DNA of 64,000 nucleotides from Escherichia phage mobillu: the sequence record MN850622.1. One strand, written 5' to 3'. Both the position numbers and the translations under genes were made by a program. Of the stretch, positions 1 to 12,483 are shown piece after piece (within the stretch, counting starts at the first letter, position 1; every line of letters begins with the position of its first letter). The notes below the pieces were generated by a model that was not told where the DNA came from, searched no databases, and worked only from the letters and a program-made list of their open reading frames with translations.

Positions 1-851
1 AATCAAAATCAAGTCTTGCTCGTCCACAAATTATTGATGCAATTTTAGATGCACTGAAATTCAGCACAGACACTTATTTTGTAAGTCCTGAAACTGTTCG
101 TCGTGATTTCACTAAAGAATTCTATACGAAAGTTATTGATCGTTGTGAAAGCATTCAACCATTGATTGATTCATTTGGTAAAATCACACATGTGAACTAC
201 ACTAAGATTGGACGTCTGAAGCCAATGCTGAAACAAGCTTTAGAACACCTTATTCGTTATCATAACCGTTCTCAGGGACAGTACTCTGTTATTCATGGTG
301 ACCCGAACTTCAGTAATACTATGATTACTGATAACGGCGAAGTCAAGTTTATCGACCCTCGTGGATATTTTGGCGAAACCAAGATTTACGGGCCAAAATT
401 GTATGATGAAGCTAAAGTGCTTTATGCTGTTTCAGGTTATGATGAATTCAATGCTAATCCGACCTGGGGACAGTTTACTATTGATGAAACAACTTGTAAT
501 GTGACTATTAACATCAATCCATTAGTTTACAAATATGGAAAGATGAGTTCGTTTAACGAGTATCATCATTTGGCTGTAGCAATTATCTGGATTGCATTAG
601 GTGGTTATTTCAAGAATAATCCACTTAAAGCGGTAGCCGCATATTATAAAGGTATGGAACTTCTGACTAAGCAATTACGTAACATGGGCCGTGTACTTCA
701 AGACGGCTCTATTAGTTATGACGTAGCAGAACCTGTAACGGCTACTCTGATTACAAAAAATCCTGGTAAATGGGTACTAACTGATAAAGAAACTGGTGTT
801 TCCTATCGTCCAATCGGTGGCGATATCACTCATCAATGGGAACGAATCTAA
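1..851 (+). CDS. protein-kinase-like (APH/choline-kinase fold) phosphotransferase, 5-prime truncated at window edge
   Basis: Reading frame open from nt 3 with no stop and no ATG before the window start; catalytic-loop-like VIHGDPNFSNTMI and FIDPRGYFG motifs; stop TAA 849-851. Confidence 0.55.
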   Translation, partial: SKSSLARPQIIDAILDALKFSTDTYFVSPETVRRDFTKEFYTKVIDRCESIQPLIDSFGKITHVNYTKIGRLKPMLKQALEHLIRYHNRSQGQYSVIHGDPNFSNTMITDNGEVKFIDPRGYFGETKIYGPKLYDEAKVLYAVSGYDEFNANPTWGQFTIDETTCNVTININPLVYKYGKMSSFNEYHHLAVAIIWIALGGYFKNNPLKAVAAYYKGMELLTKQLRNMGRVLQDGSISYDVAEPVTATLITKNPGKWVLTDKETGVSYRPIGGDITHQWERI

Positions 852-1237
852 TGCACCGTGTAGAAAACATGCTTAATCTTTGTTTTGATGTCGATGATTG
901 TATAACAGAGTGGAATAACAATCGTGATTACGTGAACTTCAAACCAGACGTCGAAATGGTGTCTGCCATTAATGCCCTGTATGATGCAGGGCATACCATA
1001 ACGCTTTACACTGCTCGCGGTATGAAGTCAGTAGGTCCTGGTCGTATAGCAATTGACATTCTCCCAAGTCTGATTCAGAACTTGGCAAACATTGGCTTGA
1101 AGTACCATAATTTGCTAACACATAAACCAGTATATGATTGGATTATCGACGACAAAGCTATGCGTCCTGACGAATTCAAAGCTCTTATGAATAAAGGCGA
1201 ATTCGAAACATTTAAATCATATAAACCAAATCTATAA
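851..1237 (+). CDS. small HAD-superfamily-like phosphatase (possible 5-prime(3-prime)-nucleotidase type)
   Basis: TAATG overlap with upstream stop; N-terminal FDVDDC (DxD) motif, TLYTARG, and C-terminal K...IIDDK resembling HAD motifs I-IV; alternative start 836. Confidence 0.5.
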   Translation: MHRVENMLNLCFDVDDCITEWNNNRDYVNFKPDVEMVSAINALYDAGHTITLYTARGMKSVGPGRIAIDILPSLIQNLANIGLKYHNLLTHKPVYDWIIDDKAMRPDEFKALMNKGEFETFKSYKPNL

Positions 1238-1294
1238 TAATTTAAGTAAGACCTGCAAAAACCATCGCATCAATTAACGTGAGATGCAAAAAAA

Positions 1295-2455
1295 ATGAAT
1301 ACTTTTAAAATCGGAACGAATTTTGATTTAGCTCTTCTTGATAAAATCGTAGAGCTCAATAAAACTTATCCTAATAGCTTGATAAACGAAGTATACGGCT
1401 CTACAAGAGAAATGGCTTTTGTAGCAGCCAGACCTGATTTTAGGCTTCCTGACGTTGACAAAAAGATGTTAGAAGATTACGTTAAACGTTGTAACGAATT
1501 AGGTATTTGCTTTAACTATACACTCAACACGATAAATCCTGGTTCAAAAAGAGAACTAGTTGAGTGGAAGAAGAAAGCTATTCAGGATTATGTTCAGTAT
1601 CTTTGGTCAATAGGCGTATGGCGTATTACTATCGCTAACCCTGTTGTTATGGAAATTGTTCGTGAAGTCAATAAAGACATTGAGATTGAAGTTTCAACAA
1701 TTCTACATGTCGATGCTGTAACTCAAATCAAATACTTGCATGACCAGTATAATATCAAAAAGGTCTGCTGTGGAATTCATAAGAACCGTTCAGTTTCTTT
1801 CCTGAAGCGTGCAGCAGAGTTTTGCAATAAGAACAATATAATATTTGAAGTTCTTGTAAATGAGTTCTGTTCTAATGCTGGTAAAGGGTATACAACACAT
1901 TGTAGCTATCGTGACTCTTGCTATATTTTCCATAGTACTGATGTTACAGCTGATGATGCTAAATCCTTAAACGGATATCCTATGCAGCACTGTATTAAAG
2001 CTCGTGATACAGACCCATTTAACTGGTTGAGAACTCGTTTTGTTCGTCCTCAAGATTTGAAACTTTATAATGATATTGGTATCACTCAATTCAAAGTTTC
2101 AGGACGTACAGGTAGCACAGACTACATTTTGAAAGTTCTTGAAGCATACGCTTCTGAAAAGTTTGAAGGTAATTTGTTAGAACTGTGGAAGCCTTTAGAG
2201 ACTATTTTCACTCTTGAAAATGAGACCGAGTTTTCACATACGGTAAATATTGAAACCTCTTTGTTAGATGGCTTTTTAGAAAAAAGGTGGTTCAGACATC
2301 CAGATTTCGATTGTGCTAATGAAATCTGCGGGACGACGTGTACATATTGTGAAAGATATTATAAACGTCAGTTATCTAAAAATGGGTTATCAGAAAATTC
2401 TATATCTATTATTGATATAACTAACTCTGATGACGCTTTGAGGTACCCAGAATGA
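1295..2455 (+). CDS. peptidase U32-family protein (RlhA/TrhP/UbiU-like putative Fe-S prephenate-dependent hydroxylase)
   Basis: 386 aa; N-terminal layout and FKVSGRTGSTDY segment resemble U32 KIEGR region; multiple Cys incl. C-terminal CxxxxCxxxCxxC; assignment from memory of family motifs. Confidence 0.5.
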   Translation: MNTFKIGTNFDLALLDKIVELNKTYPNSLINEVYGSTREMAFVAARPDFRLPDVDKKMLEDYVKRCNELGICFNYTLNTINPGSKRELVEWKKKAIQDYVQYLWSIGVWRITIANPVVMEIVREVNKDIEIEVSTILHVDAVTQIKYLHDQYNIKKVCCGIHKNRSVSFLKRAAEFCNKNNIIFEVLVNEFCSNAGKGYTTHCSYRDSCYIFHSTDVTADDAKSLNGYPMQHCIKARDTDPFNWLRTRFVRPQDLKLYNDIGITQFKVSGRTGSTDYILKVLEAYASEKFEGNLLELWKPLETIFTLENETEFSHTVNIETSLLDGFLEKRWFRHPDFDCANEICGTTCTYCERYYKRQLSKNGLSENSISIIDITNSDDALRYPE

Positions 2456-2691
2456 TTTCTAGAAAAACTTTTAACCACCAACTTAATGAAGAGATTTTGA
2501 CTATGAAAATTAACAGCAACGAACAAATTCTTAAAAAGGCCCTTATGGGCCTGTTTGAAACTAAAGCGGCTAAAGTGATTAAAGGACCTGTTCAATTGGA
2601 ATACTACGCTGATGCATTTCTTCATAGTGTTCTTGGAAGTATCGATGCTGAAGCTTTACGTTATATCAACATTGTCAAGAAATTCAAATAA
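2452..2691 (+). CDS. hypothetical protein
   Basis: ATGA start/stop overlap with upstream gene; 79 aa; no recognisable motif. Confidence 0.45.
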   Translation: MISRKTFNHQLNEEILTMKINSNEQILKKALMGLFETKAAKVIKGPVQLEYYADAFLHSVLGSIDAEALRYINIVKKFK

Positions 2692-2714
2692 GCTTTACGA
2701 ATTGAGTATATAAT
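2692..2714 (+). promoter_or_regulatory. putative middle promoter for gene 42 (MotA box GCTTTA + TATAAT)
   Basis: aGCTTTAcgaattgagtaTATAAT, box-to--10 gap 11 nt. Confidence 0.35.
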
Positions 2715-2733
2715 AAATTGTATTGAGGTAAAC

Positions 2734-3450
2734 ATGGGAAAACATAACACAATGAAATATATCAAAGCCGCAGATTTTCAAACCGCATTTAAAGCAGTCA
2801 ATCGTGAAATTTTAGAAAACCCGGAATTCGTAACTGATTCTCGTATTGGACGTTGTAATGAAATTGGGTCTATGACAGTAGTTGTTGACACTCCATCATC
2901 ATTCAAAATGACCGACCCACGTATTAACCGCATCTCTTATGAATACGCCGAAGATTTCTGGAAGTTTATGATTTCTGGTGGTACCAACGCAGAAGAAGCG
3001 TTTAAGGCATATCCTAATGTCGCTAAATTTATTTCTAAACCAAAATCAGATGTTTTGCCGGCGAACTTCAACACTTTCTACGGTCCTCGCATTGCGGCCC
3101 AATTACCAGCTCTTCTAAAAGAACTTAAAGAGAAGCCTAACTCCCGAAGAGTTGTGTTCCAAATTCTAGAAAGTTCTGATCAGGCTTTGCTTGATTCAGA
3201 CGAAACGCTTGAATATCCATGTACTGACTCAGTGACTTATTATATTCGTGATGGTAAGCTTTATACCCACTGTCATATGCGTTCTCAGAACTGTGCTGTT
3301 GTTATGCAGTTGGATTTTTATCTCCAAGGAAAATTACTTCATTATATCGCTAACGAATGTGGTGTAGAAGTTGGTGATTATACTCATACCATGGTAAGTG
3401 CCCATGTGTTTGAACGTGATTTTGATTATGTTAAAGGATTCCTTGACTAA
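2734..3450 (+). CDS. 42: dCMP hydroxymethylase (thymidylate-synthase superfamily), gene 42 homolog
   Basis: GAGGT RBS; SRR and YPCTD catalytic-Cys motif, MRSQN motif, Asp at position +31 from catalytic Cys (equivalent to T4 gp42 Asp179 / TS Asn177); syntenic with T4 gene 42 next to uvsX. Confidence 0.75.
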   Translation: MGKHNTMKYIKAADFQTAFKAVNREILENPEFVTDSRIGRCNEIGSMTVVVDTPSSFKMTDPRINRISYEYAEDFWKFMISGGTNAEEAFKAYPNVAKFISKPKSDVLPANFNTFYGPRIAAQLPALLKELKEKPNSRRVVFQILESSDQALLDSDETLEYPCTDSVTYYIRDGKLYTHCHMRSQNCAVVMQLDFYLQGKLLHYIANECGVEVGDYTHTMVSAHVFERDFDYVKGFLD

Positions 3451-4349
3451 TGGCTATTTTCCGCGTACCAATCTTGAGTATGCGGTCTTATGAAACTGGA
3501 CAGTATGCTATCCTTAAGGATGGCAACTTCCAACTTCATTTGCACCGTGCTAATCCAGGTGATGTGATTACATATCCACGTAATGCATCTGATATTAAAG
3601 AATGCGAACGTCTTTTCCCAGAATTTAAGTTTGTTCCATTATGGTATAAAGATAACGCGTATAACACTCGTAAATATTTCTGGTCTGAAAATGAATTTGT
3701 GGTTGATTCATTAATTGCTTATTATGATTGTGATTTTCTAATCACAGATATCACCGGATATGACGGTGCTTTTGATGTAGAATTCAATTTCAATATCACT
3801 GCAGACCCTAATAAACCACGTTTTTATATTGACGAATTCTTAAAAACCGACATGTTGTCGGTTAATCGTTCACTTCAAACTACTGTGTTGAACGAACGTC
3901 AAAAAGAAGTGCTGGTTAACGCAGGTGCAGATGGTAATAAGATTATCGTAACGCAGAAAGTTATACGTCCTTCCATCATGCAGCGTCTTGTAGGTGATTT
4001 GGCTCCTATTCATCTAGATGGTATTTTTCATCCATTTCGAATTAGCGACCCGTGCTATCGTTTTGAACAAGTGGTTGAATGTGCAATTCAATTAGGCCAA
4101 CCGCTTTATATAACCGATCCAAATAATAGCTTCGACAGAAATAAGTATCCTGAAGAAGCGCTGATTCGAATTTTTAAACCAACTAAAACTGAGTACTATC
4201 AAATTCTTAAAGGACGTCCGAAAATTCAATATTTCGAAAATCCTGAAGAAGTATTCCATCCAGGTCTTGGTGAGTTCATCTACTTTAATGCTTTAATTTC
4301 TTCGCCGTATAATATACCTAAATATGAAGATGTCGTAATCGAGGAATAA
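3450..4349 (+). CDS. hypothetical protein in beta-gt syntenic slot (possible transferase)
   Basis: TAATG coupling to gene 42; 299 aa; no recognisable similarity to T4 beta-glucosyltransferase by eye. Confidence 0.5.
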   Translation: MAIFRVPILSMRSYETGQYAILKDGNFQLHLHRANPGDVITYPRNASDIKECERLFPEFKFVPLWYKDNAYNTRKYFWSENEFVVDSLIAYYDCDFLITDITGYDGAFDVEFNFNITADPNKPRFYIDEFLKTDMLSVNRSLQTTVLNERQKEVLVNAGADGNKIIVTQKVIRPSIMQRLVGDLAPIHLDGIFHPFRISDPCYRFEQVVECAIQLGQPLYITDPNNSFDRNKYPEEALIRIFKPTKTEYYQILKGRPKIQYFENPEEVFHPGLGEFIYFNALISSPYNIPKYEDVVIEE

Positions 4350-4350
4350 A

Positions 4351-4899
4351 ATGGCTAAAATTATTTTAGTAGATGGCCCAGATAATGCTGGTAAAACAAC
4401 TTTCATTAATGACATAATGGAAATTAGTGAAAGATATGTAAAGATTGATTTCCCTAAACGAACAGTTGATGGGCGTTTCGATGTTAAGTCTCGAAATGAA
4501 GTTGGCTGCTTCGAAACGATGTTGAATTATTTAGACCCTACTAAGATTTATCTGTTAGACCGTGGATATATTAGTAACTGGGTTTATGGACGTATTCGAC
4601 AAGATGCGGACTCGGTTCTTGACGTTTATGAACAGGATTATGTTCGTCTTTGCCAAAACCATGATGTGTTCACAATTATTTTAACACGTAACGAAATGAC
4701 TGAAAGTTTTGAAGACGACCTTATTACTTTGTCTTCATTCGGTTTTAATACAGTCATTTCACATTTTGAAGAGTTTGCAATTCATAACAAAATCCAAACG
4801 TATCAATTACTTAATCATGATGGTGCTAACAAAGTTATAGGATTTAATGCAAGCGAACGTAATTATTTGATTACAGAAATTATCAAATGGGCTCGTTAA
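4351..4899 (+). CDS. P-loop nucleotide/nucleoside kinase-like protein (TMPK/dNK-like)
   Basis: Walker A VDGPDNAGKTT near N-terminus; LDRGYISNWVYG resembles DR(Y/H) motif of thymidylate/deoxynucleoside kinases. Confidence 0.6.
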   Translation: MAKIILVDGPDNAGKTTFINDIMEISERYVKIDFPKRTVDGRFDVKSRNEVGCFETMLNYLDPTKIYLLDRGYISNWVYGRIRQDADSVLDVYEQDYVRLCQNHDVFTIILTRNEMTESFEDDLITLSSFGFNTVISHFEEFAIHNKIQTYQLLNHDGANKVIGFNASERNYLITEIIKWAR

Positions 4900-7985: not shown

Positions 7986-8015
7986 GTTTACATCTTCCTC
8001 TAGGCATGATATGAT
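7986..8015 (+). promoter_or_regulatory. T4-type early promoter
   Basis: GTTTAC -35, TATGAT -10, spacer 18; directly after gene 41 terminator hairpin. Confidence 0.5.
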
Positions 8016-8044
8016 GTACTTACACCAACCAAGAGGAAAACATT

Positions 8045-8419
8045 ATGAATATGTCTCAAGCAATTTTTACTGTAATCACCGAAAACACAACTGTTGAAGT
8101 AGTTTCTCCACTGGCAACCTACGTTATTCTTGCTCCTAAAACTATTGTATCTCGTATGGAAAACATGGGCAAACGTATCGTACAAATAGTTGGAGCCGGA
8201 AATCAAAAACTTGATTATCTACGAACCATCAAAGCTTATGAACATTTCCAACTCGAAAAAGGTTCTCCTATCCAGGTAGAACTCGTAAATGGTGATATCG
8301 TTCGAGCAATGTTCCATCATTTCTATGCATTGAATGACCCATCTAAAGCGGTTCGTTTAATTGCATACGACGCAAACCAAAACGAAATCAACGCAGATGT
8401 ATCTAAATTACGTTTTTAA
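8045..8419 (+). CDS. hypothetical protein
   Basis: 124 aa ORF downstream of early promoter; no motif recognised. Confidence 0.5.
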   Translation: MNMSQAIFTVITENTTVEVVSPLATYVILAPKTIVSRMENMGKRIVQIVGAGNQKLDYLRTIKAYEHFQLEKGSPIQVELVNGDIVRAMFHHFYALNDPSKAVRLIAYDANQNEINADVSKLRF

Positions 8420-8448
8420 GTTTACTTCTCCAGTAGTTGTGTTATTAT
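8420..8448 (+). promoter_or_regulatory. T4-type early promoter with 10-bp inverted repeat around -10
   Basis: GTTTAC ... TATTAT; ccagtagttg / caactactgg flank the -10. Confidence 0.6.
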
Positions 8449-8474
8449 AGATCTATCAACTACTGGAGAACAAA

Positions 8475-8792
8475 ATGAAAACCATCGATTGTAAAGCAGA
8501 ATTTAAGATTTTTTATCACGGTTCAAGTAGTTCAGCTAACATCGAAAACATGCTTTGTCCTCCTGAAGAAACAGGAGTTCTGTCTGAAACTGGACGTAAG
8601 AAAAACTTGGATCGTGTATTCTTTACTGAAGATATCGGTTTAGCAAAGATTTATGCAGGACGAGCAGCACGCTCTTATGGAGGTGAACCACGTCTCTATC
8701 GAGTAATTTCTCCGGTAGATGTAGTTCAAATGAATGATACTAAAGGCGCTACAGTTTATCACGCTGAATGGGCATTTTGCGAGGAAATATGA
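8475..8792 (+). CDS. Arr-like (rifampin ADP-ribosyltransferase fold) small protein
   Basis: 105 aa; FYHGSSSSANIENML and RVFFTEDIGLAKIYA resemble Arr H-G-[ST]...YF(T/S) core; own early promoter with 10-bp inverted repeat. Confidence 0.45.
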   Translation: MKTIDCKAEFKIFYHGSSSSANIENMLCPPEETGVLSETGRKKNLDRVFFTEDIGLAKIYAGRAARSYGGEPRLYRVISPVDVVQMNDTKGATVYHAEWAFCEEI

Positions 8793-8977
8793 GCAAATTA
8801 ACTAAAGTTACTTTTATCGGTTGGTTTAAAAGCGGTGAGATGTTCACTAAAGATATCATGTTATCAGGTGATCGCGAAGAAATCGAGTGGGTTACGGTAC
8901 AACTTGCTGAAGTGAACAAAGCATTAGTTAAAGCATTTGTTAATGACGAGAAAGTTTTCGAAGCAGATTTTCGATAA
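8789..8977 (+). CDS. hypothetical small protein, translationally coupled to Arr-like gene (size/position compatible with dmd)
   Basis: ATGA overlap with upstream stop, GAGGAA upstream; 62 aa; T4 dmd is a ~60 aa gene in the same 41-61 interval. Confidence 0.4.
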   Translation: MSKLTKVTFIGWFKSGEMFTKDIMLSGDREEIEWVTVQLAEVNKALVKAFVNDEKVFEADFR

Positions 8978-8989
8978 TTTTAAATAGCT

Positions 8990-9019
8990 GTTTACAAGCC
9001 CCACATACTGTGTTACTAT
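8990..9019 (+). promoter_or_regulatory. T4-type early promoter
   Basis: GTTTAC + 18 + TACTAT, then CTATCAAC leader. Confidence 0.55.
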
Positions 9020-9047
9020 CTTTCTATCAACTACAGAGGAAATTGAA

Positions 9048-9416
9048 ATGAAAAAATTAATCGCTTTAGCAATGGTATTTGGATTAACCGGATGTGGTGC
9101 CCATGGCTTTATCCCTAATAATGTTGGCCAACTGATTTATAATCCGAATGTTAAACAGTACGACCAACCTAAAGTTGAAGTGGAAGACCCGGTTACTGTA
9201 GGTAATCGAATGATTCAAGCTGATGCCCATGCTCAACGTTATCGTGACTCTGATACTGTAGCATTGTCAAAAGAACAGCGCGTTAAAGAACATTGCTTAC
9301 AGGCTACTGAAATCGCATTCATTCGCTATGTTGAAACAACCGGTAAAGAGCCTACCCAGAAACAAATCGCGAATAACTACGTCCAGTGTATTGAACGTTT
9401 AAACAAATTTAATTAA
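9048..9416 (+). CDS. putative lipoprotein
   Basis: Signal peptide MKKLIALAMVFGLTGC with lipobox LTGC; 122 aa. Confidence 0.6.
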   Translation: MKKLIALAMVFGLTGCGAHGFIPNNVGQLIYNPNVKQYDQPKVEVEDPVTVGNRMIQADAHAQRYRDSDTVALSKEQRVKEHCLQATEIAFIRYVETTGKEPTQKQIANNYVQCIERLNKFN

Positions 9417-9419
9417 TTG

Positions 9420-9449
9420 GTTTACACCAAAGTTAAAATAAGATACTAT
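9420..9449 (+). promoter_or_regulatory. T4-type early promoter
   Basis: GTTTAC + 18 + TACTAT. Confidence 0.55.
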
Positions 9450-9477
9450 AAACATAACAAATCAAGAGGAAATTAAC

Positions 9478-9726
9478 ATGGAATTATTCGTAGCTAGTTC
9501 AGTAGCAGTTTTAATCGCAGGTATTGGTTCAATCATCATTTACATGTTGCCTTGGGTAATCGCACTTATTCGTGGCACAAAAAGCACAACAGCAATCTTC
9601 TTTGTATCTTTACTCTTTAACTGGACGATGGTTGGTTGGATTGGAACTTTAATTTGGTCTATCATTGCCGAAAAGAAATCGGCTCAGCAGCCTCAACAAG
9701 TAATTATTATTCGCGAAAAAGAATAA
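9478..9726 (+). CDS. small membrane protein resembling superinfection immunity (Imm) family
   Basis: 82 aa, two hydrophobic segments, central RGTKS and W-rich second helix (NWTMVGWIGTLIW). Confidence 0.4.
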   Translation: MELFVASSVAVLIAGIGSIIIYMLPWVIALIRGTKSTTAIFFVSLLFNWTMVGWIGTLIWSIIAEKKSAQQPQQVIIIREKE

Positions 9727-9730
9727 ACTT

Positions 9731-9760
9731 GTTTACATTATAGATGGACTATAGTATAGT
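9731..9760 (+). promoter_or_regulatory. T4-type early promoter with inverted repeat around -10
   Basis: GTTTAC; ggact-atagtatagt-agtcc. Confidence 0.55.
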
Positions 9761-9789
9761 AGTCCTATCAAATCAACTAAGGAGTTAAA

Positions 9790-10083
9790 ATGAAAAAGTT
9801 ATCATTGGCAGCAATCTTACTTGCAGTATCATGTGCACCGGCTCCAGTTACGGCAGGTTATGATAAAGACCTCTGTGAGTGGTCAATGACTGCAAATCAA
9901 GAAGATGTTGAACAACAAATCTTCTCTGATATCATGAACATCACTAAACGAGACCGTCCTAATATGGTTAATAAAGTTGTTGAACAACTTAAGTCTGGCG
10001 GTATCATGCAGTACAACTATGTTTTGTATTGTGACCCTAATTTCGATAACAAAGATATCGTAACCGAAATCACAGGTGAATAA
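9790..10083 (+). CDS. sp: Spackle-like periplasmic protein (superinfection exclusion / lysozyme inhibitor)
   Basis: 97 aa with cleavable signal peptide; size and position (before 61.2-like, upstream of 61) as T4 sp. Confidence 0.5.
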   Translation: MKKLSLAAILLAVSCAPAPVTAGYDKDLCEWSMTANQEDVEQQIFSDIMNITKRDRPNMVNKVVEQLKSGGIMQYNYVLYCDPNFDNKDIVTEITGE

Positions 10084-10084
10084 T

Positions 10085-10735
10085 ATGATTTATTATATGC
10101 ACAAAAATGCGCCATTTAAATATGGTAAATTTCCTAATGCACAATGTTATAATATAACGCCGAATGAAAATAATAACGGATACCATCTCGGTGTAATTTT
10201 TGTAATTGTTAAAGATAACGAAATAGTTGCCTGGGCAGATTTTAAAGGTACAACATATGATGTTAATCCTGTGCCTTTCACATATTACAATATAATGGAT
10301 TTGGCATATGATTATAATTGGTTTAATCATGACACGTTGGCTCATATTGAAGGTGTAGGATTTGACATCTCTTATTCTAGCTATTCATTATGTCCTATGA
10401 GCCGAGCTCACGGTAAAGATGTATCATATCTTTCAATTCGGAAACGTGTAAACTTCAAACGTAGTACAGAGTATGTTGGTGGACTCTTTGTTAAAGATAA
10501 TAAAATAACCCGTATTAGTTATCCTCTAAGTGTAGGCCAAAAAGATGTTGATGTTGATTTGGACTTAACTGAAAATAACATTAATCGTATTGCTTCTGTA
10601 TATTTTGATATCGATGAAAAAATTGTAGTGTGTGGATACGAATTACCACCTGAAGAAAAGGCCGAAGCAATTGAAGTCGAATTAGAAATTTCTGTTGATG
10701 ACCAAATATTTAATGCATTTATGAATCGAGGTTAA
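10085..10735 (+). CDS. hypothetical protein (61.2-position)
   Basis: ATG 1 nt after upstream stop; 216 aa. Confidence 0.5.
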   Translation: MIYYMHKNAPFKYGKFPNAQCYNITPNENNNGYHLGVIFVIVKDNEIVAWADFKGTTYDVNPVPFTYYNIMDLAYDYNWFNHDTLAHIEGVGFDISYSSYSLCPMSRAHGKDVSYLSIRKRVNFKRSTEYVGGLFVKDNKITRISYPLSVGQKDVDVDLDLTENNINRIASVYFDIDEKIVVCGYELPPEEKAEAIEVELEISVDDQIFNAFMNRG

Positions 10736-10736
10736 A

Positions 10737-10934
10737 ATGACTACTGCAATTTGCACTGGTTCTAAAATTAGTGTTTTTACAAGTTTTGAAGATTATGAAG
10801 TTGTTTCAAAACACCAATGCCATATTAGCGTAAAAGCTAATGATGGTGTAATTTGGAATATTCCACAGTATGAAGGCACTACATATGAAGTCACAGATAT
10901 AAATGGTGACAAAGCAATCTTTGTAATTGATTAA
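10737..10934 (+). CDS. hypothetical small protein
   Basis: 65 aa ORF tightly packed between neighbours. Confidence 0.4.
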   Translation: MTTAICTGSKISVFTSFEDYEVVSKHQCHISVKANDGVIWNIPQYEGTTYEVTDINGDKAIFVID

Positions 10935-10953
10935 ATATACTCAGGAGGTACCT

Positions 10954-11421
10954 ATGGGTATTATTAACACTGCAATAGATTCTGTTTATGCATATAAGTT
11001 TATTCGACTAATGCAAAAACCTTTTACTGAATGGAAAGCATACGAAGCCAAAATCATCGATGAACGTGGAAGTGTTCTTAAACGCCCTTCCACTCCTGAA
11101 GAGAAAGCGGCTTATACACCTTTTCATGCTTCAGTTCGTTCAATGAAGCGAATGATGAGCACTGTTCCAGGTCTTAATGGAATGGCCTCAATGATGTCTG
11201 CCTGGAGTGCTGTAGCTTCACGCTATAACATTACGGAAGAACAACAGAAAGAAATATTTAAAGAACTCCCTTTATTTGAGGATATGGTTGCTGGTGATTC
11301 AGGCGACAGTCCTCAAGCTATTGCATCAGGAACAACTACAGGTGCAGTCGTAAATAAAGGTCCAGAACAAATTCCTTCCAAGAAAAGAAAGCGAATTAAA
11401 GTAAATATTAATAAGTTGTGA
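10954..11421 (+). CDS. hypothetical protein
   Basis: AGGAGG RBS 6 nt upstream of ATG 10954; 155 aa; Ser/Met-rich middle, basic C-terminus. Confidence 0.5.
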   Translation: MGIINTAIDSVYAYKFIRLMQKPFTEWKAYEAKIIDERGSVLKRPSTPEEKAAYTPFHASVRSMKRMMSTVPGLNGMASMMSAWSAVASRYNITEEQQKEIFKELPLFEDMVAGDSGDSPQAIASGTTTGAVVNKGPEQIPSKKRKRIKVNINKL

Positions 11422-11460
11422 TATGATGGCCTTATTAATTTAAGGCCTCTGGAGAATACT

Positions 11461-12483
11461 ATGGCTGAATGGATAGATAATGAATTTGCTTATCGTGCGT
11501 TTTCTCACCTACCTCGTTTTAGACAAATCAATAATTCAAGCACATTTAAATTAACATTTCGATGTCCAGTTTGTGGCGACTCTCAGACAGATGCAATGAA
11601 AGCTCGCGGTTGGTATTATGGCGGTACTCCTGGTAATGTACATTGCTATAACTGTCAATACCACAATACAATTTCCGGATACTTAAAGGAGTATGATGAA
11701 GAGCTTTATCGCGAATATCTAATGGAAGTTCGTAAAGAAAAAGCTAGAATGGAACCAAAGATTGAAAAGGTTCCTGAAGCTAAGCCAGAGCCAGAGAAAA
11801 AGACTATAAATTCTTTGCCGTCTTGTTCTCGTCTGGACAAGTTGCCTGAAGAGCATCCTATTGTGAAATATGTTAAGTCTCGGTGTATTCCTAAAGAATC
11901 ATGGAACAGATTATGGTTCACATTAGAATGGCCCAAATTGGTCAACAAGATTCAACCTGGTACGTATAAGAAAGAGATTCCCGAACCACGTTTAGTGATT
12001 CCTATTTTTAATAAAGATGGTAAGGCCGAGTCATTCCAAGGACGTGCACTTCGTAAAGATGCTCCTCAGAAATATATCACTATTAAAGCGTTTGAGTCTG
12101 CAACAAAAATTTATGGTGTTGAACGTGTTAAGGAAGGGGACGTCTGGGTAATGGAAGGCCCTATTGATAGTTTATTCATACCCAATGCAATCGCTATTAC
12201 AGGCGGCTCAATAGATTTAGATGTGGTACCATTTAAAGAACGTCGGGTATGGGTAATGGATAATGAACCTAGGCATCCGGATACTATAGCTCGCATGAAG
12301 CGATTAGTTGATGCAGGCGAACGTGTCATGTTCTGGGATCGAGCTCCATGGAGATCAAAGGATGTGAATGATATGGTAATGAAAGAAAATGCAACACCAC
12401 AAGAAATTTTAGAATATATGAAACAGAATATTTCAAGTGGGTTGCATGCTAAAATGAGATTATCTCGTTATTCGAAGATTTAA
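11461..12483 (+). CDS. 61: gp61 DNA primase
   Basis: 340 aa; N-terminal zinc-binding CPVCGDS...CYNC, toprim-like core; synteny. Confidence 0.9.
   Translation: MAEWIDNEFAYRAFSHLPRFRQINNSSTFKLTFRCPVCGDSQTDAMKARGWYYGGTPGNVHCYNCQYHNTISGYLKEYDEELYREYLMEVRKEKARMEPKIEKVPEAKPEPEKKTINSLPSCSRLDKLPEEHPIVKYVKSRCIPKESWNRLWFTLEWPKLVNKIQPGTYKKEIPEPRLVIPIFNKDGKAESFQGRALRKDAPQKYITIKAFESATKIYGVERVKEGDVWVMEGPIDSLFIPNAIAITGGSIDLDVVPFKERRVWVMDNEPRHPDTIARMKRLVDAGERVMFWDRAPWRSKDVNDMVMKENATPQEILEYMKQNISSGLHAKMRLSRYSKI

What the first reader, a model, noticed from the sequence alone, without database searches (positions are those of the whole stretch)
9048..10083. Envelope-targeted superinfection-exclusion island: lipoprotein, Imm-like membrane protein and Spackle-like periplasmic protein
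Three adjacent small genes, each with its own early promoter cassette, encode a lipoprotein (LTGC lipobox), a two-TM Imm-family-like membrane protein and a 97-aa signal-peptide protein at the sp position. In T4, imm lies next to gene 42; here that locus is occupied by the enzyme module and the Imm-like gene appears relocated beside sp.
Basis: partly seen in the sequence, partly recalled or inferred. Interest (0 to 1): 0.5.

Follow-up and report, generated by a model that had tools for sequence, protein, structure and literature searches.

The report
RB69-type imm.1–imm–sp exclusion genes
These three small genes are the RB69-type copies of the phage T4 genes imm.1, imm and sp, which stop a second phage from entering an already infected cell; they have carried these names in the RB69 genome record (AY303349), so the finding is correct but ordinary.

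Summary
Window 9048-10083 holds three real + strand genes. Each has a T4-type early promoter and a strong ribosome-binding site.

The window is an RB69-like (Mosigvirus) T4-type phage, 98.3-98.5% identical in DNA to RB69.
- Gene 1 (9048-9416) is the Imm.1 lipoprotein (Pfam DUF5481, phrog_1754; 32% identical to T4 Imm.1).
- Gene 2 (9478-9726) is Imm itself (64% identical to T4 Imm over its full length).
- Gene 3 (9790-10083) is Spackle (66% identical to T4 Sp; the disulfide cysteines and the named gp5-lysozyme contact residues are conserved).

In all 12 other contexts sampled, imm lies just after DNA polymerase gene 43. Only in RB69-type phages does it lie beside sp.

Two refinements. The lipoprotein and imm moved together as a pair, and in all 13 contexts sampled the lipoprotein sits next to imm. 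The enzyme module does not by itself displace imm, because JS10 and one metagenomic phage contig have both.

RB69's GenBank record (AY303349) already names the genes imm.1, imm and sp, and about 154 phage records share the arrangement. Only the role of Imm.1 remains open.

Novelty: already known. Interest: low.

The parts
8990..9019 (+). T4-type early (sigma-70) promoter in front of imm.1: GTTTACA-N17-TACTAT
   Evidence: Pattern search (14 sites in the window, all on the + strand, 0.74 expected). Also found by the consensus scan. Consensus match only; no transcription data.
9048..9416 (+). imm.1: a 122-aa predicted lipoprotein (lipobox LTGC, Cys16). It has a flexible N-terminal tether and a C-terminal helical hairpin that carries the conserved Cys83 and Cys114.
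   Evidence: Pfam DUF5481 3.7e-9 and phrog_1754 5e-29. 32% identity to T4 Imm.1, E = 3e-19. One residue different from RB69 Imm.1. In the 32-sequence family alignment Y31 and C114 are invariant, and C16 and C83 are present in at least 90%. AlphaFold2 models.
9420..9449 (+). T4-type early promoter in front of imm: GTTTACA-N17-TACTAT. T4 has none here; its imm follows imm.1 after 7 nt.
9478..9726 (+). imm: the 82-aa superinfection immunity protein of the inner membrane, with two hydrophobic transmembrane stretches
   Evidence: Pfam Imm_superinfect 1.8e-15 and phrog_1039 4e-30. 64% identity to T4 Imm over the full length. Hydrophobicity profile. One residue different from RB69 Imm.
9731..9760 (+). 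T4-type early promoter in front of sp: GTTTACA-N17-TATAGT
   Evidence: A weak stem-loop, GGACTA/TAGTCC, lies around the -10 box, but its z-score is only -1.28.
9790..10083 (+). sp (gene 61.3): the 97-aa Spackle precursor. Residues 1-22 are the signal peptide; the mature 75-aa periplasmic protein inhibits the tail lysozyme gp5.
   Evidence: Pfam T4_Spackle 1.1e-42. 66% identity to T4 Sp. PDB 6x6o at 1.4e-39; the mature chain 7cn6 aligns from residue 23. C29, C81, S32, M33, T34, A35, Q37 and N76 are conserved, checked against PMC7677548.

Best explanation
The region is the RB69-type (genus Mosigvirus) arrangement of three known T4 early genes, imm.1, imm and sp. Each has its own early sigma-70-type promoter, so all three should be expressed within minutes of infection.

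By orthology with T4:
- Imm inserts into the inner membrane as a two-helix protein and stops the DNA of a later-arriving T-even-type phage from crossing into the cytoplasm.
- Sp is exported, loses a 22-residue signal peptide, and binds and inhibits the lysozyme domain of the incoming phage's tail-spike protein gp5, so the tail cannot get through the cell wall.

Imm.1 is a lipoprotein whose function has not been tested. It is probably anchored in the outer membrane, because it has no Asp after the lipid-modified Cys. A flexible tether of about 30 residues precedes a helical hairpin that is probably disulfide-stapled and faces the periplasm. I infer that it works with Imm in the same envelope-level block.

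The cluster arose when the imm.1-imm pair moved as a unit from its usual place downstream of DNA polymerase gene 43 to the slot just upstream of sp. The small hydrophobic ORF that normally follows imm (phrog_3610, RB69ORF054c) stayed behind.

What is shown: gene identities, promoter motifs, synteny and the relocation. What is inferred: the activities of Imm and Sp in this phage (by orthology), the localisation of Imm.1 and its partnership with Imm.
For: Identity of the phage and its genes:
- The window is 98.3-98.5% identical in DNA to RB69. Each of the three proteins differs from its RB69 counterpart by one residue.
- The RB69 record AY303349 names the genes imm.1, imm and sp in this order.
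- Family matches are above threshold for all three.
- Pairwise identity to the T4 proteins is 32%, 64% and 66%.
- Sp matches the solved T4 Spackle chains. It keeps the Cys29-Cys81 disulfide pair and the contact residues S32, M33, T34, A35, Q37 and N76 named in PMC7677548.
- There is one copy of each gene in the window and one imm place per phage record, 1034 places in 1034 records.

Ancestral position of imm (directly downstream of gene 43):
- T4, JS10 (27), PSD2001 (28), Gelderlandvirus (29), Muldoonvirus (30), Jiaodavirus (31).
- Six metagenomic loci.
- JS10 keeps sp between 61.4 and the 61 side.
- In RB69 the phrog_3610 ORF remains between genes 43 and 42.

Imm.1-imm linkage:
- A phrog_1754 lipoprotein lies next to imm in 13 of 13 contexts sampled, upstream or downstream of it.

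Promoters.
Against: There is no experimental evidence for this phage or for RB69, so exclusion by its Imm and Sp rests on orthology.

I found no published functional test of Imm.1.

Structure prediction of Imm.1 was confident only for the C-terminal hairpin (mean pLDDT 63-65). Fold searches matched nothing outside its own family.

From my own recollection of Lu and Henning (1989), not checked here, cloned T4 imm alone confers immunity. Imm.1 would therefore not be strictly required.

Two family members, P0002 and P0009, lack the lipobox Cys, so the lipid anchor is dispensable in some variants.

The 13 contexts were picked by hand and are not an exhaustive census.
Confidence: 0.88

Rival explanations
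1. The lipoprotein is an independent receptor-masking exclusion factor, like T5 Llp or the Cor proteins, which bind and block the outer-membrane receptor. On this reading it is unrelated in function to Imm.
For: It is a predicted lipoprotein, probably sorted to the outer membrane, and it is made early. Phage lipoproteins of this kind are known exclusion factors (PMC9586334, listed).
Against: It is adjacent to imm in 13 of 13 contexts and moved with it. It has no sequence or fold match to Llp or any other solved protein. Two relatives lack the lipid anchor.
Confidence: 0.08
2. Imm.1 has nothing to do with superinfection exclusion. It would serve some other envelope function, for example lysis timing or envelope stability during infection. 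Its linkage to imm would reflect only shared early expression or shared history, and the adjacency to sp would be a neutral by-product of one rearrangement, not a functional island.
For: No functional data exist. From memory, and not checked here, imm alone suffices from plasmids. The imm-sp adjacency occurs in only one genus. Each gene has its own promoter, so no co-regulation is gained.
Against: The pair survives changes in gene order (imm.1-imm against imm-small ORF-imm.1) and a translocation, across at least seven genera. In a genome region that shuffles this much, that argues for selection on the linkage.
Confidence: 0.3
3. The gene beside sp is not the relocated orthologue. It would be a second, horizontally acquired Imm-family paralogue that replaced a lost original.
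For: The Imm_superinfect family is widespread in unrelated phages, including Vibrio, Ralstonia and Burkholderia phages.
Against: Its 64% full-length identity to T4 Imm is the same level as Sp (66%), and the nearest non-Mosigvirus hits are Tequatrovirus Imm. It arrived with an Imm.1 whose closest outside relatives, at 46-48% identity, sit in the canonical 43-42 slot. The partner ORF phrog_3610 remains at the old site.
Confidence: 0.04

Closest known systems
Phage RB69 genes imm.1, imm and sp (GenBank AY303349 / NC_004928; genus Mosigvirus)
   Same: Same three genes, in the same order, with the same intergenic promoters. Each protein differs by one amino acid, and the DNA is 98.3-98.5% identical.
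   Different: The window lacks the 214-bp gene 61.4 that RB69 has between dmd and imm.1. Several other Mosigvirus records match the window without this gap.
Phage T4 Imm (superinfection immunity membrane protein, Pfam PF14373)
   Same: 82 against 83 residues, 64% identical, two transmembrane stretches, an early gene, and preceded by the imm.1 lipoprotein gene.
   Different: In T4 it lies between genes 43 and 42, is co-transcribed with imm.1 (7-nt spacer, no promoter of its own), and is followed by the phrog_3610 ORF. Here it lies beside sp, has its own promoter, and has no phrog_3610 ORF after it.
Phage T4 Spackle (gp61.3; PDB 6x6o, 6xc0, 6xc1, 7cn6, 7cn7)
   Same: 97 residues, 66% identical, same signal-peptide length, same disulfide cysteines and lysozyme-contact residues, same genomic slot upstream of 61.2.
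   Different: The upstream neighbour is imm rather than 61.4. Binding to the RB69-type gp5 has not been tested.
T5 Llp and Cor-type lipoproteins (receptor-blocking exclusion factors)
   Same: Small phage-encoded lipoprotein aimed at the cell envelope and expressed to protect the infected cell.
   Different: No sequence or structural similarity to any solved protein was detected. Imm.1 is genetically tied to an inner-membrane protein, not to a receptor-binding-protein locus.

Membership tests
T4 Spackle (Pfam PF25676, phrog_1586) | Sequence match above the curated threshold over the full length | tested here: met
   145 bits against a cut-off of 27, covering 1-96 of 96 profile positions. phrog_1586 2.9e-42. 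66% identity to T4 Sp.
T4 Spackle (Pfam PF25676, phrog_1586) | Cleavable N-terminal signal peptide giving a 75-residue periplasmic protein | tested here: met
   A hydrophobic stretch spans residues 1-23. The mature T4 chain 7cn6 aligns from residue 23. The cleavage context is VTA|GYDK here and AMA|GYDK in T4. Cleavage itself was not tested.
T4 Spackle (Pfam PF25676, phrog_1586) | Disulfide pair Cys29-Cys81 and the gp5-lysozyme contact residues | tested here: met
   C29, C81, S32, M33, T34, A35, Q37 and N76 are all present. The residue list comes from PMC7677548.
T4 Spackle (Pfam PF25676, phrog_1586) | Inhibits gp5 tail lysozyme and contributes to superinfection exclusion | not testable with these tools
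   Requires biochemistry or phage challenge.
T4 Imm (Pfam PF14373 Imm_superinfect, phrog_1039) | Sequence match above the curated threshold and full-length similarity to T4 Imm | tested here: met
   57 bits against 27.9. 64% identity over 82/83 residues.
T4 Imm (Pfam PF14373 Imm_superinfect, phrog_1039) | Small protein with two membrane-spanning hydrophobic segments | tested here: met
   Kyte-Doolittle stretches at about 1-31 and 38-64, separated by RGTKST. Topology was not tested.
T4 Imm (Pfam PF14373 Imm_superinfect, phrog_1039) | Canonical genome position directly downstream of DNA polymerase gene 43 | tested here: not met
   Here and in RB69 it lies between dmd/61.4 and sp. The 12 other contexts have it after gene 43. 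Position is not a functional criterion, so orthology stands.
T4 Imm (Pfam PF14373 Imm_superinfect, phrog_1039) | Blocks DNA entry of superinfecting T-even phages | not testable with these tools
   Requires a phage challenge or DNA-injection assay.
Imm.1 lipoprotein family (Pfam DUF5481 / phrog_1754) | Sequence match above threshold | tested here: met
   DUF5481 37.3 bits against 27. phrog_1754 5e-29, covering profile positions 1-148 of 148.
Imm.1 lipoprotein family (Pfam DUF5481 / phrog_1754) | N-terminal lipobox, and two conserved cysteines on the C-terminal helices | tested here: met
   LTGC with Cys16, plus C83 and C114. In the 32-sequence alignment C114 is invariant, and C16 and C83 are present in at least 90%. 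The helices at 75-98 and 104-120 have pLDDT 86-91. Lipidation and the disulfide were not tested.
Imm.1 lipoprotein family (Pfam DUF5481 / phrog_1754) | Gene adjacent to imm | tested here: met
   13 of 13 contexts.
PeSL mobile promoter/stem-loop cassettes of T4-type phages (PMC2839356, PMC4122927) | Early promoter consensus TTTACW-N17-TAYWAT | tested here: met
   All three sites fit. The consensus is quoted from PMC4122927.
PeSL mobile promoter/stem-loop cassettes of T4-type phages (PMC2839356, PMC4122927) | Associated stable stem-loop | tested here: not met
   Fold z-scores are +0.49, -0.69 and -1.28 for the three intergenic regions, against -5.09 for the T4 dmd promoter region. No terminator-like site lies in 8900-10100. 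They are best called plain early promoters.

The most novel reading that the evidence does not exclude
Imm.1 is a so far unrecognised third component of T-even superinfection exclusion. On this reading it is an outer-membrane-tethered periplasmic partner that works with inner-membrane Imm, for example by capturing the tail tip or tape-measure protein of an incoming phage, or by positioning Imm at the penetration site. That would explain why the two genes stay adjacent in every T4-like lineage sampled and moved together in RB69-type phages.
Probability: 0.3. Interest if true: 0.45.

Novelty: already known. Interest (0 to 1): 0.15.

Why it matters
There is little new here. The genes, their names and their order are already in the RB69 GenBank record and in about 154 related phage records, and the mechanisms of Imm and Sp are textbook T4 biology.

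The useful by-product is a tidy comparative point. The Imm.1 lipoprotein is the constant companion of Imm across T4-like genera and travelled with it in RB69-type phages, yet I found no published test of its function. That makes it a cheap and well-defined candidate for anyone still working out how Imm blocks DNA entry.

Tried and rejected
- **Structure route to an Imm.1 function.** Two AlphaFold2 runs (7 and 32 sequences) gave mean pLDDT 63 and 65. Only the C-terminal hairpin was confident. Foldseek against the PDB gave nothing below E = 2. Foldseek against BFVD returned only Imm.1 homologues. A PDB sequence/profile search gave no hit for Imm or Imm.1.
- **Other libraries.** NCBIfam and PADLOC gave nothing significant for any of the three proteins.
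- **hhalign of the DUF5481 group against the Gelderland/Muldoon/Jiaoda lipoproteins.** It aligned only the signal peptide. Homology was instead supported by all of them matching phrog_1754 over its full length.
- **Exhaustive single-sequence search for Imm.1.** It found only 7 proteins. The family became visible only with profile queries.
- **Promoter-swap idea.** The promoter before imm in the window looks a little like T4's sp promoter. I dropped the idea because the shared motifs are generic to early-promoter leaders.
- **PeSL cassette idea.** Rejected, because no significant stem-loops are present.
- **Internal repeats in the region.** Only chance-level short matches were found.
- **Literature.** Searches for a functional study of Imm.1, or for a discussion of the imm relocation, found none. 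One paper lists Imm.1 as absent from the RB69 group, probably because of its divergence. The T4 genome review (PMC150520) is not held.
- **Local file.** L002.fa was missing from the Python sandbox, so I compared the T4 proteins with the tool instead.

Full report
**What is in the sequence**

Window 9048-10083 contains three + strand ORFs exactly as described: 9048-9416 (122 aa), 9478-9726 (82 aa) and 9790-10083 (97 aa).

Each ORF has a Shine-Dalgarno sequence 6-8 nt before its ATG. Each is also preceded by a T4-type early promoter, GTTTACA-N17-TAnnnT, at 8990, 9420 and 9731. The pattern GTTTAC-N15-19-TAYWRT occurs 14 times in the 64-kb window, always on the + strand, against 0.74 expected from shuffles. 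No terminator-like site lies between the genes.

- Protein 1 starts MKKLIALAMVFGLTGC, a signal sequence ending in a lipobox.
- Protein 2 has two hydrophobic stretches (about 1-31 and 38-64).
- Protein 3 has an N-terminal signal-type stretch.

**What the genes are**

The window is an RB69-like phage. Positions 8000-11500 match 154 phage records at 95-99% identity. The first 12.6 kb align to RB69 at 98.3-98.5%.

RB69's GenBank record AY303349 annotates the three genes as imm.1, imm and sp. Each window protein differs from the RB69 protein by a single residue.

Independent family searches agree:
- Protein 1 is Pfam DUF5481 (37.3 bits, cut-off 27) and phrog_1754.
- Protein 2 is Pfam Imm_superinfect (57 bits, cut-off 27.9) and phrog_1039, 'immunity to superinfection'.
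- Protein 3 is Pfam T4_Spackle (145 bits) and phrog_1586.

Against the T4 proteins themselves, Imm.1 is 32% identical (E = 3e-19), Imm is 64% identical over its whole length, and Sp is 66% identical. T4 Imm.1 also has a lipobox, LAGC.

Sp matches the solved T4 Spackle chains 6x6o and 7cn6 at 1e-39 and 1e-33. The mature chain begins at residue 23. The disulfide cysteines C29 and C81 and the gp5-lysozyme contact residues named by Shi et al. (S32, M33, T34, A35, Q37, N76; PMC7677548) are all present.

Each gene is single-copy in the window. Every phage record with an imm match has exactly one place, 1034 places in 1034 records.

**The relocation**

In T4 the order is 43 - imm.1 - imm - (49-aa ORF, phrog_3610) - 42 - b-gt ... 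uvsX - 40 - 41 - dmd - 61.4 - sp. Imm directly downstream of gene 43 is also the arrangement in:
- Dhakavirus JS10
- Gaprivervirus PSD2001
- a Gelderlandvirus
- Muldoonvirus
- a Jiaodavirus
- six metagenomic T4-like contigs

JS10 keeps sp in its usual place after 61.4. RB69 instead has 43 - ORF055c - ORF054c - sugar/enzyme module - 42-like gene ... 41 ... dmd - 61.4 - imm.1 - imm - sp.

ORF054c is a phrog_3610 member. That is the small hydrophobic ORF which follows imm in T4, JS10 and PSD2001. It stayed at the old site and marks where imm used to be.

- First, the unit that moved was the imm.1-imm pair, not imm alone.
- Second, the enzyme module is not a sufficient cause. JS10 and metagenomic locus L017 carry a comparable module (SIS isomerase, nucleotidyltransferase, 42-like gene) and still have imm next to gene 43.

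In T4, imm follows imm.1 after 7 nt with no promoter. In the RB69 type there is a 61-nt spacer with a promoter of its own.

The three promoter regions are not PeSL-type cassettes, because none has a significant stem-loop. Their z-scores are +0.49, -0.69 and -1.28, against -5.09 for the T4 dmd promoter region (definitions from PMC4122927).

**The lipoprotein**

This is the only part without a known function.

Single-sequence searches found very few relatives. Profile searches found 28 or more clusters.

All lipoproteins found next to imm match phrog_1754 over its full length, with E-values from 1.8e-14 to 1.5e-52. This holds whether they lie upstream of imm (T4, Gelderlandvirus, Muldoonvirus, Jiaodavirus) or downstream of it (JS10, PSD2001). 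A direct hhalign between two small sub-alignments aligned only the signal peptide.

In the 32-sequence alignment Y31 and C114 are invariant, and the lipobox Cys16 and C83 are present in at least 90%. No member of the 11-sequence alignment that has a lipobox Cys carries Asp straight after it. By the E. coli +2 sorting rule (established knowledge) this predicts outer-membrane anchoring.

Two relatives, P0002 and P0009, have a plain signal peptide in place of a lipobox. P0009 lies in the canonical 43-42 slot.

AlphaFold2 gave confident structure only for helices 75-98 and 104-120, which carry the two conserved cysteines. Residues 1-31 are disordered. Fold and sequence searches against solved and viral structures found nothing outside the family.

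In all 13 genomic contexts examined the lipoprotein gene is next to imm, at most one tiny ORF away. This is so despite inversion of gene order and one translocation.

I read this as evidence of a functional partnership with Imm. I rate that reading at about 0.3 for a direct role in exclusion.

I found no publication that tests Imm.1. One comparative paper lists it as a T4-group gene missing from the RB69 group and calls an exclusion role 'to be proven' (PMC5885020). The present comparison shows that RB69-type phages do have it, much diverged and in a different place.

**How it most likely works**

- Shown here: gene identities, motifs and synteny.
- Inferred by orthology: immediately after infection the host RNA polymerase transcribes the three genes from their early promoters. 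Imm inserts into the inner membrane and prevents the DNA of later-arriving T-even-type phages from reaching the cytoplasm. This part rests on my own knowledge of T4 (Lu and Henning 1989; Lu, Stierhof and Henning 1993), not on papers read here.
- Sp is exported and inhibits the lysozyme domain of the incoming tail spike gp5, by binding across its substrate cleft (PMC7677548).
- Imm.1 probably hangs from the outer membrane into the periplasm and assists Imm. This last step is inference only.

**Comparison and novelty**

The cluster is identical in content and order to RB69's annotated imm.1-imm-sp. The only difference is that the window lacks gene 61.4 upstream.

It is a member of known families on every testable criterion. 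The one criterion not met is positional: imm is not next to gene 43. That is a genus trait of Mosigvirus, not a new system.

Reviews I could read do not discuss the relocation (PMC2993671; PMC6024577), but it is plain in the public annotation.

Verdict: observation confirmed, interpretation supported, already known, low interest. The modest residual value is that Imm.1 stands out as a well-defined, untested candidate partner of Imm.

Noticed in passing
window 8977-8990 (junction); RB69 locus L001 9971-10184: Gene 61.4 lies between dmd and imm.1 in RB69 but is absent from the window as a clean 214-bp gap. Several other Mosigvirus records match the window in one unbroken piece, so the presence of 61.4 is polymorphic within the genus.
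   Followed up: partly
window 8789-8977 and 10085-10735: Two known anti-defence genes flank the exclusion genes. One is dmd, the antitoxin-like 'discriminator of mRNA degradation' (Pfam 7e-21). The other is 61.2 = AdfA, anti-DarT factor A (Pfam 1.5e-119). The likely dmd start, ATG at 8789, overlaps the stop of the upstream ORF (ATGA), and the adfA reading frame overlaps the end of sp.
   Followed up: partly
window 3450-4349: The window has a single 299-aa ORF here. The RB69 record has two ORFs (ORF047c and ORF046c) because of one extra T at alignment column 545. This may be another sequencing error in the RB69 record, like the ORF053c/052c error reported in PMC6024577, or it may be a real frameshift.
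   Followed up: partly
RB69 locus L001 11-121 (outside the window, upstream of its start); T4 locus L002 9249-9398: A very hydrophobic ORF of 36-49 aa (phrog_3610) follows imm in T4, JS10 and PSD2001. In RB69 it stays at the 43-42 locus although imm has left. Its function is unknown. It may be a further small membrane component of the imm neighbourhood.
   Followed up: partly
window 8475-8792: A conserved 105-aa ORF (RB69ORF040c, phrog_2110) has no Pfam, NCBIfam or PADLOC match. Its motifs YHGS ... IYAGRA ... YHAEW reminded me of the H-Y-E signature of ADP-ribosyltransferases. That is a resemblance from memory only and was not tested.
   Followed up: no
proteins P0002 and P0009 (locus L008 6001-6372): Two Imm.1 relatives, 46-48% identical to the window protein, lack the lipobox cysteine (LAGFS, LAFSS). 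They look like soluble periplasmic versions and still sit directly upstream of imm.
   Followed up: partly
protein P0003: This 198-aa metagenomic protein joins a fragment annotated as DNA polymerase family A (PF00476) to the last 29 residues of Imm.1 at 97-100% identity. It is probably an assembly or gene-calling chimera.
   Followed up: no
window 9790-9855; T4 locus L002 15574-15640: The Sp signal peptide keeps a cysteine at position 15 in both phages. In T4 its context, L-A-S-C, fits a lipobox pattern; in the window it is A-V-S-C, which does not. The crystallised mature protein starts at residue 23, so this is probably incidental.
   Followed up: no
window 1-4899: Upstream lies the RB69-type sugar/nucleotide enzyme module. 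It includes a gene-42-like thymidylate-synthase-family ORF at 2734-3450 and corresponds to RB69 ORF045c-ORF052c. RB69 carries arabinosyl-hydroxymethylcytosine DNA (PMC6024577). JS10 and metagenomic locus L017 have a similar module but keep imm next to gene 43.
   Followed up: partly
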